From NCBI GenBank assembly GCA_964551375.1, contig CAZKBG010000001.1, positions 715,229-747,228 of the forward strand: 32,000 nt of DNA. Direction: 5' to 3'. The first letter of the stretch is position 1; every line of letters starts with the position of its first letter. This DNA is from an uncultured archaeon. GTDB lineage: Archaea > Iainarchaeota > Iainarchaeia > Iainarchaeales > JAAZKV01. Of the stretch, positions 10,293 to 11,306 are shown in pieces. The translations under genes and the position numbers were made by a program. A model generated the notes under the pieces. The model was given only the letters and a program-made list of their open reading frames with translations. It had not been told where the DNA came from and searched no databases.

Positions 10293-10312
10293 TTAACTCT
10301 ATTTCTTGGACA
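10293..10312 (+). repeat. left arm of a perfect 20-bp inverted repeat TTAACTCTATTTCTTGGACA, followed by TATA-like cattttaaaat
   Basis: Exact reverse complement of 11287-11306. Similarity continues for 7 of the next 10 nt. Confidence 0.8.
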
Positions 10313-10426
10313 CATTTTAAAATGAACTATTAAATAAAATAAAGGCGTTTAAACACATTTAAACCCAAAAATGAGCTAAAATACCTTTCTGTAATGGCAA
10401 AAATTTAGTAAAAATCAGCCAAAAAG

Positions 10427-10440
10427 GTGGTAATTACCAC
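10427..10440. repeat. perfect 14-bp palindrome GTGGTAATTACCAC
   Basis: Self-complementary. It shares the 11-mer GTAATTACCAC with 9708-9718 and 7219-7229. Confidence 0.7.
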
Positions 10441-10524
10441 TTTTATATGGTTAAACTCTCACTAAACGCAGAATTACTTAATTATTACAGAGGGGTTTTG
10501 TGCCAAGCAGTTATTGCTGACTGC

Positions 10525-11166
10525 TTATTGCTGTTGAGGCGCCTGTGTTTGGGTCTGCGTTTGAGAAGGGGTTGGCCCAAGTTTTAACAGTTTATAATTA
10601 GAATAAAACTCCTGCAAAACAGGGGATAATTGGTAGGATTGTTTGAACCAGTCAAGATCAACTATTGCCTGAACATCTTTTAGAAGAGCTGATTTGTAGT
10701 TAGCGTCCGCGCCTTTTTCAACCACTCTTTTTAGTTCAGATGAAAGCTTAACAAGCCCTTCCTGTCCTTCAACAAACTTTCTGCTTAAAAGATTTTCAAC
10801 CGCAAGAACAACTTCCTTTTCAGCAACATCTTTTTCATTCAAAAAATAAGTACATTTCCACTCGCCTTTAGTCTCCCAATTATGGGTTGGATTGTGGCCG
10901 GTTTTAAAAAATTCCTGCAAGGATTGAAATGCTGCTGGAGGGATAATAACACAATTTTTACCAGGCCTTATATAAGGATAATTTGAAAGAATTCCTGCGC
11001 GGTGATAATGGTAGGTCTTTCCAGAGGCTTTGTAAACGGCTTGGGTATAACCATAAATTGCCCTGAAAAGTTTCTGATAAGTGTAAGAGGAATGTTTCAC
11101 AGTATCAGGTATTATGAATCTGTATTGAACAAAATAACTTCTGATAGGCACACCCAACACTTCCAC
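10525..11166 (-). CDS. hypothetical protein (213 aa), unknown family; GTG start, no internal Met, TQTQTQ tail
   Basis: ORF track. The N-terminus (YFVQYRFIIPD..SSYTYQKLFRAIYGY..) looks like an alpha/beta ferredoxin-like module, and the C-terminal half is helical. An AT-rich TATA region lies directly upstream. A stem-loop aagcagt-tattgctg-actgctt sits at the stop codon. Confidence 0.6.
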   Translation of the reverse strand: MEVLGVPIRSYFVQYRFIIPDTVKHSSYTYQKLFRAIYGYTQAVYKASGKTYHYHRAGILSNYPYIRPGKNCVIIPPAAFQSLQEFFKTGHNPTHNWETKGEWKCTYFLNEKDVAEKEVVLAVENLLSRKFVEGQEGLVKLSSELKRVVEKGADANYKSALLKDVQAIVDLDWFKQSYQLSPVLQEFYSNYKLLKLGPTPSQTQTQTQAPQQQ

Positions 11167-11286
11167 TAATATACTCTATATAATATAATAAAAAAATCCT
11201 TATGTATATTATATATACATAGTATTTATAAAGTTGAAGTTAAACTTTTGATTTTTTAAAAAAATTTTAAGGACAAATTTAAAAAA

Positions 11287-11306
11287 TGTCCAAGAAATAG
11301 AGTTAA
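11287..11306 (-). repeat. right arm of the 20-bp inverted repeat, embedded in GGACA-N11-TGTCC dyad over a TATA-like box
   Basis: The minus strand reads TTAACTCTATTTCTTGGACATTTTTTAAATTTGTCC. It lies 120-140 nt upstream of the 213-aa ORF start. Confidence 0.8.

What the first reader, a model, noticed from the sequence alone, without database searches (positions are those of the whole stretch)
10293..11306. 1-kb cassette: unknown 213-aa GTG-initiated ORF bracketed by a perfect 20-bp inverted repeat fused to TATA-like boxes
TTAACTCTATTTCTTGGACA at 10293-10312 is the exact reverse complement of 11287-11306, and 7 of the next 10 nt inward also match. The arms enclose one ORF (10525-11166). That ORF has a GTG start, contains no internal Met, ends in a TQTQTQ tail and matches no family I recognise. 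The arms also enclose a very AT-rich 200-bp stretch with near-palindromes (atgtata..tatacat, 11202-11220). Each arm is followed directly inward by a TATA-like box, and the right arm forms a GGACA-N11-TGTCC dyad across that box. I see three readings. First, these could be terminal inverted repeats of a small, undescribed mobile cassette. Second, the segment could be invertible, acted on by the tyrosine recombinase 1.2 kb away. Third, there could be two identical operator-promoters firing convergently across the ORF. Very speculatively, the ORF N-terminus has a ferredoxin-like beta-alpha-beta pattern with an H-Y-H triplet (res 53-55), as in HUH or Cas2/VapD-type nucleases. I cannot support that from sequence alone.
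Basis: partly seen in the sequence, partly recalled or inferred. Interest (0 to 1): 0.75.

Follow-up and report, generated by a model that had tools for sequence, protein, structure and literature searches.

The report
Conserved boundary motif pair, not transposon
The perfect 20-bp inverted repeat is real, but it is two copies of a short DNA signal found between genes throughout one archaeal phylum (Iainarchaeota/Diapherotrites), flanking a fixed core gene of unknown function, and it is neither a mobile nor an invertible cassette.

Summary
In detail: 10293-10312 is the exact reverse complement of 11287-11306, and no such match occurs in shuffled sequence. The mobile and invertible readings fail.

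- **The gene is fixed.** The enclosed gene probably starts at the GTG at 11151. It belongs to a very conserved, unannotated family found once per genome in 137 Iainarchaeota species. It always sits in the same order and orientation: XerA > PRC-barrel > ORF213 < geneA < tRNA-Met (initiator-like, tRNAi-Met) < TFEalpha < aTrm56. It has no relatives in viral contigs.
- **No inversion is seen.** Two independent assemblies of the same or a nearly identical strain are colinear with the window.
- **The arms are copies of a wider motif.** They match each other only over the 20-mer. The motif consensus is AAAACACAAWWTCTTGGACA. It gives 165 hits in 630 kb, against 4 in shuffles.
- **The motif is mostly intergenic and directional.** 136 of 165 hits are intergenic. 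It points the same way as the gene it follows in 125 of 131 cases. The arms are inverted because geneA and the PRC-barrel gene both read towards ORF213.
- **Two site classes carry a phased tail.** About 100 bp of A/T tracts with a 10.2-bp period follows the motif, in register with it.

My best inference, untested, is that the motif binds a sequence-specific protein that marks or insulates transcription-unit boundaries. The functions of ORF213 and of the motif remain unknown. The H-Y-H triplet is not conserved.

The parts
10293..10312 (+). Left arm: motif copy of class 'b' (TTAACTCTATTTCTTGGACA). It lies 58 nt after the stop of geneA and points the same way as geneA.
   Evidence: An orthologous copy is present in about 23 related genomes.
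11287..11306 (-). Right arm: motif copy of class 'up'. It lies 63 nt after the stop of the PRC-barrel gene, points the same way as that gene, and is about 136 nt upstream of the ORF213 start.
   Evidence: Orthologous 'up' copies, sometimes two in tandem, occur in about 23 genomes.
10525..11166 (-). ORF213. It is a phylum-specific, highly conserved protein of unknown function, and its likely true start is the GTG at 11151. It has a basic, aromatic-rich N-terminal alpha/beta domain and a C-terminal helical domain.
   Evidence: It has no Pfam, NCBIfam, PADLOC, PDB or BFVD match.
11158..11164 (-). Shine-Dalgarno-like GGAAGTG, part of a leader (GGAAGTGTGGGGTG) conserved across the phylum ahead of the start codon.
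11200..11222 (.). Palindrome TTATGT-N11-ACATAg, with an A/T-rich centre. It is conserved at fixed spacing upstream of every ORF213 homologue and is the probable core promoter and operator of ORF213.
   Evidence: 76 loci; arm variants such as TTATGTT..AACATAA keep the symmetry. It is not dif-like by the TAA-N6-8-TTA criterion.
10427..10440 (-). Hairpin GTGGTAATTACCAC followed by a T-run. It is the probable terminator of ORF213 and is also a copy of the GTAATTAC box.
   Evidence: I7, D8; conserved in L009, L010, L019.
10340..10430 (+). Phased tract: G/C clusters every ~10.3 bp, separated by A/T runs, in register with the left arm.
   Evidence: phase-locked periodicity, p<=0.0005; same phase in site classes b and c.
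11348..11377 (-). Hairpin plus T-run terminator of the PRC-barrel gene. It lies between that gene and the right arm.
9179..9198 (+). Motif copy of class 'c' (AAAGCACAAAAAGCTGGACG), at the 3' end of TFEalpha and 145 nt upstream of tRNAi-Met. This site class is present in 71 of 77 loci.
6418..6437 (-). Motif copy (CAAACTCAATTTCTTGGACA), 72 nt after tRNA-Phe and its T-runs and 80 nt upstream of a KaiC-like ATPase gene.
   Evidence: The same context occurs in metagenome contig L110.
23166..23239 (+). Two weaker tandem copies (23166-23185 and the 12-mer at 23228-23239), upstream of a second PRC-barrel gene (23366-23641).
3684..3703 (+). Motif copy inside the RelA/SpoT coding sequence (TGS domain). 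It points the same way as the gene.
15127..15146 (-). Motif copy inside the methyltransferase gene, 51 nt after its ATG. Nine relatives carry a copy at the same distance from that gene's 3' end, and in the five sequences translated by hand the amino acids differ.
9801..10235 (+). geneA: a 144-aa protein whose only family match is a sub-threshold PadR-like (winged-helix family) Pfam hit, syntenic across the phylum. Arrays of GTAATTAC/GTAAT boxes lie upstream of it.
11369..11704 (-). PRC-barrel protein gene, always directly upstream of ORF213.
12457..13386 (-). XerA-type tyrosine recombinase, syntenic in 70 of 80 loci.

Best explanation
The segment is a fixed chromosomal locus of an Iainarchaeota (Diapherotrites, DPANN) archaeon. 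A core gene of unknown function (ORF213) has its own conserved palindromic promoter element and its own hairpin terminator.

It is bracketed by two copies of a 20-bp, non-palindromic DNA motif found across the phylum, with consensus AAAACACAAWWTCTTGGACA. The motif lies mostly between genes. It almost always points the same way as the gene it follows, often within a few bases of that gene's stop codon.

The two copies here are inverted only because the genes they follow, geneA on the + strand and the PRC-barrel gene on the - strand, both read towards ORF213. That much is shown.

Inferred: the motif is the binding site of a sequence-specific DNA-binding protein that marks transcription-unit boundaries. 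Bound in one orientation, it would stop or insulate against polymerases arriving from the upstream gene. Together with the ~100 bp of helically phased A/T tracts that follow it at two site classes, it would organise bent or wrapped DNA ahead of the next unit. This resembles how Reb1/TTF-I-type factors both terminate upstream transcription and set up the downstream promoter. The binding protein has not been identified.
For: **Fixed, non-mobile locus**
- 442 homologues, all unannotated.
- One copy in each of 137 species genomes.
- Gene order and orientation are invariant in 70-77 of 80 loci.
- No relatives in viral contigs.
- L142 is 100% identical to the window and L141 is 98.7% identical, and both are colinear with it.

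**Motif**
- 165 PWM hits in 630 kb, against 4 in shuffles.
- 136 of 165 hits are intergenic.
- The upstream half of the motif is conserved only in the intergenic copies.
- The gene upstream is co-oriented in 125 of 131 cases. The gene downstream is co-oriented in 99 of 133.
- The median distance from stop codon to motif is 17 nt, and 46% of copies lie within 5 nt.
- Similarity between the arms ends at the 20-mer: flanks are 38-43% identical.

**DNA-level action and architecture**
- A/T periodicity of 10.0-10.25 bp follows the motif and is phase-locked to it. The amplitude is 0.086, against 0.020+-0.008 after random shifts (p<=0.0005). Two non-orthologous site classes share the same phase.
- The distance from motif to tRNAi-Met varies from 99 to 194 nt and shows a 10.5-bp periodicity.
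- In the window, terminator-like hairpins or T-runs lie between each upstream gene and the motif. The left arm sits between two convergent terminators, outside any predicted transcript.
Against: - No binding protein has been identified, and there are no transcript, ChIP or MNase data.
- The strong orientation statistic is dominated by three orthologous site classes (c, b, up), so the number of independent observations is small.
- A few copies do not fit a 'post-gene' role. Those at 23166/23220 lie in a divergent promoter region. Two copies lie inside coding sequence (3684, 15127).
- In L016, L018 and L021 a copy lies in the 5' extension of the XerA ORF. In L018, where the sequence was read, the copy is about 21 nt before the probable XerA ATG.
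- The phased tail was not detected at the 'up' sites (n=6).
- Only about 7 of the roughly 35 genes in the window carry the motif, so it cannot be a general terminator.
- Whether these organisms have histones or another DNA-wrapping protein was not tested.
- The periodicity tests use related genomes, so the nominal p-values are optimistic.
Confidence: 0.5

Rival explanations
1. The motif is an ordinary transcription-factor operator or upstream activating site of a regulon. Candidate members are the tRNAi-Met/geneA unit, ORF213, a KaiC-like ATPase, a second PRC-barrel protein and, in some genomes, XerA. The right arm would regulate ORF213, and the left arm would regulate an unannotated antisense or small RNA. 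ORF213 or geneA could be the factor.
For: - Copies lie 80-136 nt upstream of start codons at 6418, 11287 and 23166-23239.
- The distance to the tRNAi-Met gene is helically phased, with curved DNA in between.
- Some relatives have tandem copies 44-47 nt apart.
- Copies within one genome resemble each other more than copies between genomes do.
- The ORF213 N-terminal domain is basic (pI 9.2-9.9) and rich in aromatic residues.
Against: - The motif matches the orientation of the upstream gene (95%) better than that of the downstream gene (74%).
- Class b copies face the 3' end of ORF213. No gene, tRNA or Rfam RNA lies downstream of them.
- A 20-bp site conserved almost unchanged across a whole phylum is unusual for a TF operator.
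- 39 genomes have only the class c copy, and none near ORF213.
Confidence: 0.25
2. The motif is a chromosome-level polar site linked to XerA and the end of replication. It would be analogous to Tus-Ter or RTP fork traps, XerD-binding XDS sites, or convergent CTCF-like boundary sites. ORF213 would be the cognate binding protein, encoded between opposed sites.
For: - The site is asymmetric and ~20 bp long, and opposed copies flank a phylum-specific gene.
- XerA is adjacent in 70 of 80 loci.
- Motif density is about 5 times higher at this locus than in the outer flanks: 1 per 2.2 kb against 1 per 11.8 kb.
- A-tract-rich DNA around dif forms an SMC boundary in Thermococcus, and archaeal dif sites can lie near xerA and be flanked by conserved inverted repeats (PMC11840125, PMC2958812).
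Against: - Where local genes point the other way, so does the motif (6418, 23166, L053, L060). Orientation therefore follows transcription, not position relative to the locus.
- No canonical dif (11-6-11 with TAA-N6-8-TTA) is conserved in the locus.
- No Orc1/Cdc6 gene and no skew signal is seen in the window.
- The density comparison is biased, because every locus was chosen for carrying ORF213.
Confidence: 0.1
3. The motif acts in RNA. It could be a 3'-UTR or processing signal in sense transcripts. Alternatively, the two arms could pair as a long-range stem enclosing the ORF213 mRNA, as processing stems enclose rRNA.
For: - The motif is co-oriented with transcription, even inside coding regions (24 of 29).
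- Many copies start at the stop codon.
- The b and up arms are identical in 3 of 18 genomes and closer to each other than to class c copies.
Against: - Helical phasing and phase-locked A/T periodicity point to action on DNA.
- Predicted terminators lie between the genes and the motif in the window.
- There is no complementarity beyond the 20-mer.
- Direct-repeat pairs can also be identical (L011 b=c).
- Most genomes have only one copy near ORF213 or none.
- No Rfam family matches.
Confidence: 0.07
4. The segment is invertible (a phase-variation switch), and the neighbouring tyrosine recombinase acts on the two arms.
For: There is a perfect 20-bp inverted repeat with a tyrosine recombinase gene 1.2 kb away. 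The arms show some concerted similarity within genomes.
Against: - The orientation is the same in 76-77 species loci and in two independent assemblies of the strain.
- The recombinase is the syntenic housekeeping XerA.
- The motif lacks the dyad-spacer-dyad core of a recombination site.
- Most genomes lack one or both arms yet keep the gene.
Confidence: 0.02
5. The arms are the terminal inverted repeats of a small, undescribed mobile cassette that carries ORF213.
For: There is a perfect inverted repeat around a single ORF of unknown family.
Against: - ORF213 is a single-copy core gene in fixed synteny in 137 species.
- It is absent from viral contigs.
- There is no target-site duplication and no empty site.
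- The 20-mer is not multi-copy in metagenomes outside orthologous contexts.
- ORF213 matches no family in Pfam, which includes transposase and HUH families, and no solved or viral structure; H53 and H55 of the H-Y-H triplet vary.
- The recombination patch in strain L141 is not bounded by the arms.
Confidence: 0.01

Closest known systems
Reb1/TTF-I-type general regulatory factor sites (eukaryotic roadblock terminators and promoter-proximal insulators). This comparison is from my own knowledge of the literature.
   Same: Both are asymmetric sites about 20 bp or shorter that lie between transcription units. Both are polar with respect to incoming transcription and sit ahead of the next promoter. 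Both are associated with positioned, wrapped DNA downstream.
   Different: This is an archaeon. No homologous factor is known or was found. Neither termination nor nucleosome positioning has been shown here. Some copies lie inside genes.
Archaeal upstream activating or operator sites (e.g. Ptr2, TrmB/TrmBL1, Lrp-type regulators). From my own knowledge.
   Same: Both are conserved cis-elements upstream of BRE/TATA promoters, sometimes in tandem, and sometimes near the regulator's own gene.
   Different: Those sites are usually palindromic, evolve quickly, and sit next to the TATA box. This motif is asymmetric, nearly invariant across a phylum, lies 50-190 bp from the promoter, and tracks the upstream gene.
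dif-flanking conserved repeats and the A-tract-rich SMC boundary at dif in Thermococcales (PMC2958812, PMC11840125)
   Same: Both involve conserved inverted repeats and A-tract-rich DNA in an intergenic region tied to the Xer system. In Sulfolobales and haloarchaea, dif lies near xerA.
   Different: No canonical dif was found in this locus. Here the motif is dispersed, roughly one per 10 kb, and follows gene orientation. The involvement of TrmBL2 or SMC is unknown.
Tus-TerB (E. coli) and RTP-IRI/IRII (B. subtilis) replication fork traps. From my own knowledge.
   Same: Both have asymmetric ~20-bp sites in opposed orientation next to the gene for a lineage-specific protein that binds them and regulates itself.
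   Different: There is no evidence that this locus is a replication terminus. The motif's orientation follows transcription. ORF213 has no similarity to Tus or RTP.
IS/MITE terminal inverted repeats and invertible promoter switches (fimS, hin)
   Same: Both have a perfect short inverted repeat flanking about 1 kb, with a recombinase gene nearby.
   Different: There is no transposase, no target-site duplication, no copy-number variation, no alternative orientation and no recombination-site architecture. The gene is a fixed core gene.

Membership tests
IS element / MITE / mobile cassette | Multiple copies or variable presence, with empty sites among related genomes | tested here: not met
   There is one copy per genome at the same syntenic position in 137 species. 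The 18-mer scan of metagenomes found only orthologous contexts or unrelated chance hits.
IS element / MITE / mobile cassette | Terminal inverted repeats flanked by a target-site duplication | tested here: not met
   The flanks CCCCAAC| and |TTTTGAG are not a duplication. The terminal TTAA is part of the conserved class b motif in relatives whose 'up' copy lacks it. Similarity between the arms ends at the 20-mer.
IS element / MITE / mobile cassette | Encodes a transposase or recombinase | tested here: not met
   ORF213 has no Pfam, NCBIfam, PADLOC or PHROG family match. It has no significant fold match.
Invertible DNA switch | Both orientations are found among strains or reads | tested here: not met
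   Orientation relative to both flanks is identical in 76-77 loci and in assemblies L141 and L142. Read-level data cannot be tested with these tools.
Invertible DNA switch | The arms have recombinase core-site architecture (two inverted binding arms around a 6-8 bp crossover region) | tested here: not met
   The conserved motif is a single asymmetric 20-mer. The GGACA-N11-TGTCC dyad at the right arm is absent from relatives.
Archaeal dif site (XerA substrate) | Imperfect 11-bp inverted repeats separated by 6 (up to 8) bp, containing TAA-N6-8-TTA, in single copy (PMC2958812, PMC11840125) | tested here: not met
   No candidate occurs in the window, and none is conserved in position across the 80 loci. 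The conserved palindrome at 11200-11222 has TTAT/ATAA at its outer ends rather than its inner ends.
HUH endonuclease (Rep/relaxase/IS200-type) | A conserved His-hydrophobic-His metal-binding motif | tested here: not met
   H53 is replaced by S, Q, R or K, and H55 by Y or P, in family members. Only Y52, Y54 and R56 are invariant. CRESS Rep structures match only at E 0.04-0.3 with TM below 0.2.
Cas2 / VapD-type nuclease | Sequence or structural similarity to the Cas2 ferredoxin-like fold | tested here: inconclusive
Archaeal replication origin (ORB elements) | Inverted ORB repeats flank an A/T-rich unwinding element, usually next to orc1/cdc6 | tested here: not met
   No Orc1/Cdc6 gene occurs in the 32 kb. 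The arms flank a gene rather than an unwinding element. The motif is dispersed and co-oriented with genes. Its resemblance to ORB consensus sequences recalled from memory is weak.
Archaeal core promoter (BRE/TATA) fused to each arm | A conserved TATA-like box at fixed distance from the motif, with a gene or RNA downstream | tested here: inconclusive
   The consensus just after the motif is weakly (t)ATTTTAAAA. Many orthologous copies instead have C/T-rich or G/C-rich sequence there. No gene follows the left arm.
Sequence-specific protein-binding boundary or operator site (the class I file it under) | Conserved, over-represented, mostly intergenic, and oriented | tested here: met
   165 hits against 4 in shuffles; 136 of 165 intergenic; 95% co-oriented with the upstream gene.
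Sequence-specific protein-binding boundary or operator site (the class I file it under) | Demonstrated binding by a protein, with an effect on transcription | not testable with these tools
   This needs EMSA, DAP-seq or ChIP, together with Term-seq or dRNA-seq.

The most novel reading that the evidence does not exclude
The 20-bp motif and its phase-locked ~100-bp A/T-periodic tail form a polar chromosomal architecture element. Possible roles are a CTCF-, Ter- or XDS-like barrier or a positioned-nucleosome anchor. The elements are concentrated around the conserved xerA, PRC-barrel and ORF213 cluster. ORF213, a basic, aromatic-rich protein with no known relatives, would be the factor that binds the motif. 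That would link chromosome dimer resolution or cell division to domain boundaries in a DPANN archaeon.
Probability: 0.1. Interest if true: 0.8.

Novelty: new variant of a known kind. Interest (0 to 1): 0.4.

Why it matters
For the scan, this removes a false lead. A perfect inverted repeat around an orphan ORF next to a recombinase looks like a new mobile or invertible element, but comparative data show it is a fixed locus.

What remains is modestly interesting in its own right:
- A 20-bp directional DNA signal is conserved almost unchanged across a whole DPANN phylum. It lies mainly at gene ends, and helically phased A/T tracts follow it in register. My limited literature search found no description of it.
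- A very strongly conserved phylum-specific protein has no detectable relatives. It is permanently linked to XerA and a PRC-barrel protein, and members of the PRC-barrel family act in archaeal cell division (bioRxiv 10.1101/2023.03.28.534520).

Little is known about how archaea delimit transcription units and organise small genomes. A sequence-defined boundary element would therefore be a testable entry point.

Tried and rejected
- **Remote homologues.** A profile search of 1.84 billion representative proteins found only 73 hits. They include stand-alone N-terminal and C-terminal domains with no annotation. Their gene contexts vary: SepF/NOG1, Cdc48, a RadA/KaiC-like gene, and a cluster of small ORFs. 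This is a faint hint of cell division, not a finding.
- **Non-coding RNA.** Rfam found only the tRNA, at both gathering and E-value thresholds. ARAGORN found nothing inside the cassette.
- **dif hypothesis.** The palindrome at 11200-11222 is not dif-like, and no conserved 11-6/8-11 candidate was found. The partial resemblance of TTGGACAT to the P. abyssi dif arm TTGGATAT, and of TTTCTTG to difSL, was judged to be chance.
- **Replication origin (ORB).** No orc1/cdc6 gene is present, and the motif is dispersed.
- **Bacterial sigma-70 promoter.** The match TGGACA-17-TAAAAT is irrelevant in an archaeon and is not conserved.
- **Long-range RNA stem or extended TIR.** Flank identity is at chance level.
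- **Small ORF on the reverse strand (ATGTCCAAGAAA...).** It is not conserved, because many copies have GGACAG or GGACAA.
- **Tandem-repeat or iteron array in the phased tract.** TRF finds only AAAAAAGGCA x2.
- **Extending the genome.** Looking up proteins at the window's edges added almost nothing.
- **Literature.** A full-text search combining Diapherotrites, intergenic and 'conserved motif' found no paper.
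Full report
**Context.** The window is archaeal. It carries an archaeal SRP RNA at 1440-1713 and four tRNAs, and its G+C content is about 36%. The genes are ordinary chromosomal ones: tRNA-guanine transglycosylase, RelA/SpoT, a KaiC-like ATPase, aTrm56, TFEalpha, an SSB-like OB-fold protein, geranylgeranyl reductase and others. Homologues of the central ORF come from MAGs labelled Iainarchaeum, Diapherotrites or ainarchaeum, which are DPANN archaea.

**The observation.**
- There is a 20/20 inverted repeat at 10293-10312 and 11287-11306. No match occurs in 100 dinucleotide shuffles.
- Seven of the next 10 nt inward match.
- The ORF at 10525-11166 (-) encodes 213 aa, starts with GTG and has no internal Met.
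- The palindrome at 11202-11220, the GGACA-N11-TGTCC dyad, the H-Y-H triplet at residues 53-55 and the tyrosine recombinase at 12457-13386 are all present.

There is one refinement. Most homologues begin M-x-[IV]-[RK]-x-Y-F, and a conserved GGAAGTG lies 6 nt before the GTG at 11151. The protein therefore probably starts there.

**The gene is a fixed core gene.**
- ORF213 has 442 homologues at E<=0.001. The 120 listed are 56-99% identical, about 190-210 aa long, and none is annotated.
- The family alignment has 52 invariant columns, including HSSY.YQKLFR..YGYTQ, GKNCV and NP.H.W..KG.WK.
- A scan of one genome per species found the gene in 137 genomes, and each of the 80 loci kept comes from a different assembly.
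- In the 80 loci fetched, the neighbours are always the same. The order is XerA (+), PRC-barrel (+), ORF213 (+), then geneA (-), tRNA-Met, TFEalpha (-) and aTrm56 (-) reading towards it. These were found in 70, 76, 77, 72 and 70 loci respectively, with no exception in orientation. The remaining loci are truncated contigs (detail for L045).
- The family has no relative in IMG/VR viral contigs.
- Two independent Logan assemblies from sister samples carry the locus. L142 is 100% identical to window 9392-16166. L141 is 98.7% identical. Both are colinear with the window, with both arms in place.

No empty site, second copy or alternative orientation exists in any of these data.

**The arms are two copies of a phylum-wide motif.**
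- A third near-copy lies at 6418-6437, and the 12-mer core occurs four times in the window.
- In the 80 loci the 10-mer TTCTTGGACA occurs 37 times in 598 kb.
- Among CTTGGACA hits, the 12 nt upstream are conserved (A3, C4, C6, A7...) only when the hit is intergenic.
- An iterated weight matrix gives the consensus AAAACACAAWWTCTTGGACA, where the CTT before GGACA can be CCT, CTA, TTA or GTT. It yields 165 hits in 630 kb, against 4 in shuffled sequence.
- Of these hits, 136 are intergenic. Of the 29 in coding sequence, 24 point the same way as the gene.

The recurrent positions are:
- **Class c.** At or within a few bases of the TFEalpha stop codon and 99-194 nt upstream of tRNA-Met. I read this tRNA as the initiator (tRNAi-Met): A1 can pair with U72 and the anticodon stem has three G-C pairs, which I recall as the archaeal initiator signature. 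The class is present in 71 of 77 loci. In the window it is a degenerate copy at 9179-9198, inside a TFEalpha ORF that has run on past the usual stop.
- **Class b.** It lies 1-63 nt after the geneA stop and faces the 3' end of ORF213. The left arm belongs here. It is present in about 23 genomes, all in the sub-clade closest to the window.
- **Class up.** It lies after the PRC-barrel gene and 100-190 nt before ORF213. The right arm belongs here. It is present in about 23 genomes, sometimes as two copies 44-47 nt apart.
- **Other sites.** One lies after tRNA-Phe and before a KaiC-like gene (window 6418; also metagenome contig L110). One lies in the 5' extension of the XerA ORF in L016, L018 and L021, about 21 nt before the probable ATG in L018. 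One lies 51 nt inside the methyltransferase gene (window 15127). Nine other genomes have a copy at the same distance from that gene's 3' end, and in the five I translated by hand the encoded amino acids differ.

**Why the pair is inverted.**
- Across the 136 intergenic hits, the gene upstream of the motif (in the motif's own orientation) is co-oriented in 125 of 131 cases. The gene downstream is co-oriented in 99 of 133.
- The median distance from stop codon to motif is 17 nt. In 46% of cases the distance is 5 nt or less.
- In the window the left arm follows geneA (+ strand, 58 nt) and the right arm follows the PRC-barrel gene (- strand, 63 nt). Both genes read towards ORF213, so the two motif copies are in inverted orientation.
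- Outside the 20-mer the two arms are no more alike than A/T-rich DNA in general. Identity is 38% over the outer 25 nt and 43% over the inner 25 nt in 17 genomes. There is therefore no extended terminal repeat and no long RNA stem.
- The exact identity of the two arms partly reflects a shared sub-clade consensus, TTAACTC(A/T)ATTTCTTGGACA, also seen in L010, L016, L018, L028 and L096.
- Still, b and up copies within one genome are more alike (16.7 of 20) than between genomes (14.5 of 20; permutation p<0.0002). They are identical in 3 of 18 genomes. Some concerted evolution or shared constraint is real and remains unexplained. Direct-repeat pairs can also be identical (L011 b = c), which argues against a requirement for pairing.

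**Anatomy of the 1-kb unit.** Reading the minus strand from the right, the order is as follows.
1. The PRC-barrel stop codon (11369), overlapped by a hairpin and T-run terminator (11377-11348).
2. The right arm (11306-11287).
3. About 65 nt of A/T-rich DNA.
4. The palindrome TTATGT-N11-ACATAA (11222-11200). It is present at the same spacing upstream of every ORF213 homologue examined. Some lineages have symmetric arm variants such as TTATGTT...AACATAA. Its A/T-rich centre sits about 60 nt before the start codon, which fits a TATA box overlapped by a dyad operator.
5. The conserved leader with GGAAGTG, then the GTG at 11151.
6. The coding sequence, ending with the stop at 10525.
7. The hairpin GTGGTAATTACCAC plus T-run (10440-10427).
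8. About 90 bp in which G/C clusters recur every ~10.3 bp between A/T runs (10430-10340).
9. The left arm (10312-10293), read here as its complement.
10. Two T-runs, which on the opposite strand follow the geneA stop codon at 10235.

The left arm therefore sits between two convergent terminators, outside any predicted transcript.

**A phased tail.**
- When sequences are aligned on the motif, the A/T content downstream oscillates with a period of 10.0-10.25 bp in class b (14 sites) and in class c (24 sites). The G/C-containing positions fall in the same register in both classes.
- With near-duplicates removed, the amplitude of the averaged profile is 0.086, against 0.020+-0.008 when each sequence is shifted at random (p<=0.0005). 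Individual sequences have twice the amplitude of their shuffles.
- The distance from the class c motif to the tRNAi-Met gene ranges from 99 to 194 nt. It shows a 10.5-bp periodicity (Rayleigh R=0.365, nominal p about 4e-4).
- The genomes are related, so these p-values are optimistic. Even so, the downstream sequences themselves are no longer alignable while the phase persists.
- This points to a function on DNA: intrinsic curvature or wrapping, kept on a fixed face of the helix relative to the motif.
- Alternating G/C and A/T at a 10-bp period is the pattern reported to favour archaeal histone assembly (PMC3691661, abstract only; the details are from my own knowledge). I did not test whether these organisms encode histones.

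**Mechanism.**

*Shown:* the motif is a conserved, over-represented, mostly intergenic, oriented 20-bp element. It is tied to gene ends and, at two site classes, to phased DNA.

*Inferred:* it is bound by a sequence-specific protein. I favour a boundary role. In this picture a polar roadblock or insulator acts against polymerases leaving the upstream gene and also organises the DNA ahead of the next unit. This is the only picture that explains all three of the following:
- the 95% agreement with the upstream gene;
- the location of class b between convergent terminators;
- the helical phasing towards the downstream promoter at class c.

A plain operator or UAS reading is the main rival. It fits the copies at 6418, 11287 and 23166-23239. 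It does not fit class b, and it fits the orientation statistics less well.

A chromosome-level reading (Ter-, XDS- or CTCF-like sites around xerA) is attractive for three reasons: XerA is universally adjacent, the copies around ORF213 are opposed, and there is precedent for A-tract boundaries and conserved repeats around archaeal dif (PMC2958812, PMC11840125). Against it, the motif flips wherever local genes flip, and no canonical dif is conserved in the locus.

Outside the core locus the motif occurs about once per 12 kb in the flanks of the 80 loci. In the window there are three hits in roughly 26 kb. By extrapolation that is on the order of a hundred copies per genome. This is too few for a general terminator and too many for a single-locus device.

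**ORF213.**
- AlphaFold2 with the family alignment gives a confident model (pLDDT 88, pTM 0.81). It has an N-terminal alpha/beta domain (residues ~8-114) and a mainly helical C-terminal part.
- Foldseek finds nothing significant in PDB or BFVD. The best E-values are 0.04 and 0.011, with TM at or below 0.35. The weak hits are generic ferredoxin-like or RRM folds.
- The H-Y-H triplet is not conserved, so an HUH nuclease is excluded on its defining motif. Cas2/VapD membership is unsupported.
- The N-terminal domain is consistently basic (pI 9.2-9.9), and a quarter of its residues are aromatic. This is compatible with nucleic-acid binding but is not evidence for it.
- Each domain also exists as a stand-alone small protein in other lineages.
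- Its function is unknown. Its permanent linkage to XerA and a PRC-barrel gene is a lead, because PRC-barrel proteins act in FtsZ-based archaeal division (bioRxiv 10.1101/2023.03.28.534520). So is the occasional adjacency of remote homologues to SepF or Cdc48. Neither is more than a lead.

**Verdict.** The headline interpretations (mobile cassette, invertible segment) are refuted or unsupported. The 'identical operator sites' reading is partly right. The thing itself is a new variant of a known kind: a conserved protein-binding-type cis-element with an unusual phased tail, bracketing an uncharacterised core gene.

Noticed in passing
window 10888-11143 (inside ORF213) compared with L141: All 43 differences between the window and the 98.7%-identical strain L141 fall in one 256-nt stretch encoding the ORF213 N-terminal domain, mostly at third codon positions. 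The other ~3.1 kb has none. This looks like an imported recombination tract, or a chimeric assembly. It is not bounded by the arms.
   Followed up: partly
window 9585-9790 and 10427-10440; L045 5100-5180: GTAATTAC palindromes and GTAAT/ATTAC half-sites are arrayed directly upstream of geneA, and one more lies in the ORF213 terminator hairpin. The array is conserved in the distant relative L045. It is probably the operator of geneA's own protein, whose only family match is a sub-threshold PadR-like hit.
   Followed up: partly
window 11200-11222 and the same position in 76 loci: The palindrome TTATGT-N11-ACATAA is conserved across the phylum upstream of ORF213, with symmetric arm variants in some lineages. 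A conserved leader, GGAAGTGTGGGGTG, follows it. This is a separate cis-element from the arms, and its binding factor is unknown.
   Followed up: partly
window 9179-9226: The TFEalpha ORF in this genome runs through the class c motif, which in most relatives starts at the stop codon. This adds about 15 residues, and the motif copy here is degenerate (GGACG).
   Followed up: no
window 3687-3703 and 15127-15143: Two motif copies inside unrelated coding sequences (the RelA/SpoT TGS domain and the methyltransferase N-terminus) share 17 identical nucleotides (GCTCAAAAACTTGGACA) in different reading frames. The methyltransferase copy is kept in nine relatives, and in the five sequences translated by hand the amino acids differ. 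This suggests selection on the DNA or RNA inside genes.
   Followed up: partly
window 11969-12442: The 157-aa ORF between XerA and the PRC-barrel gene has no family match. Among the 80 species loci it has a homologue only in the closest one (L001); the same-strain assemblies L141 and L142 also carry a 155-aa gene at this position. In most genomes XerA is followed directly by the PRC-barrel gene. It is therefore a lineage-specific insertion next to xerA.
   Followed up: no
window 9421-9800: About 380 nt with no ORF lies between tRNAi-Met and geneA. A comparable ORF-free stretch lies between tRNA-Met and geneA in L045, and the large motif-to-next-ORF distances in other class c loci fit the same gap. 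Rfam finds nothing there. Apart from the GTAAT boxes, its content is unexplained.
   Followed up: partly
L143, L144, L146, L149 (remote homologues of ORF213 domains): Distant relatives of the ORF213 N-terminal domain sit next to SepF and NOG1, in an apparent operon with a Cdc48 ATPase, divergent from a RadA/KaiC-like ATPase, or in a run of small co-directional ORFs that looks like a mobile element.
   Followed up: partly
metagenome loci L084, L086, L091, L102, L103, L107, L108, L117, L122, L125, L137: The 18-mer AACTCAATTTCTTGGACA also occurs inside a repeated element (ggttttttgagttccAACTCAATTTCTTGGACAagaggata...) on very large contigs with ~43% G+C. This is evidently an unrelated, probably eukaryotic, repeat family and a chance overlap with the motif.
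   Followed up: no
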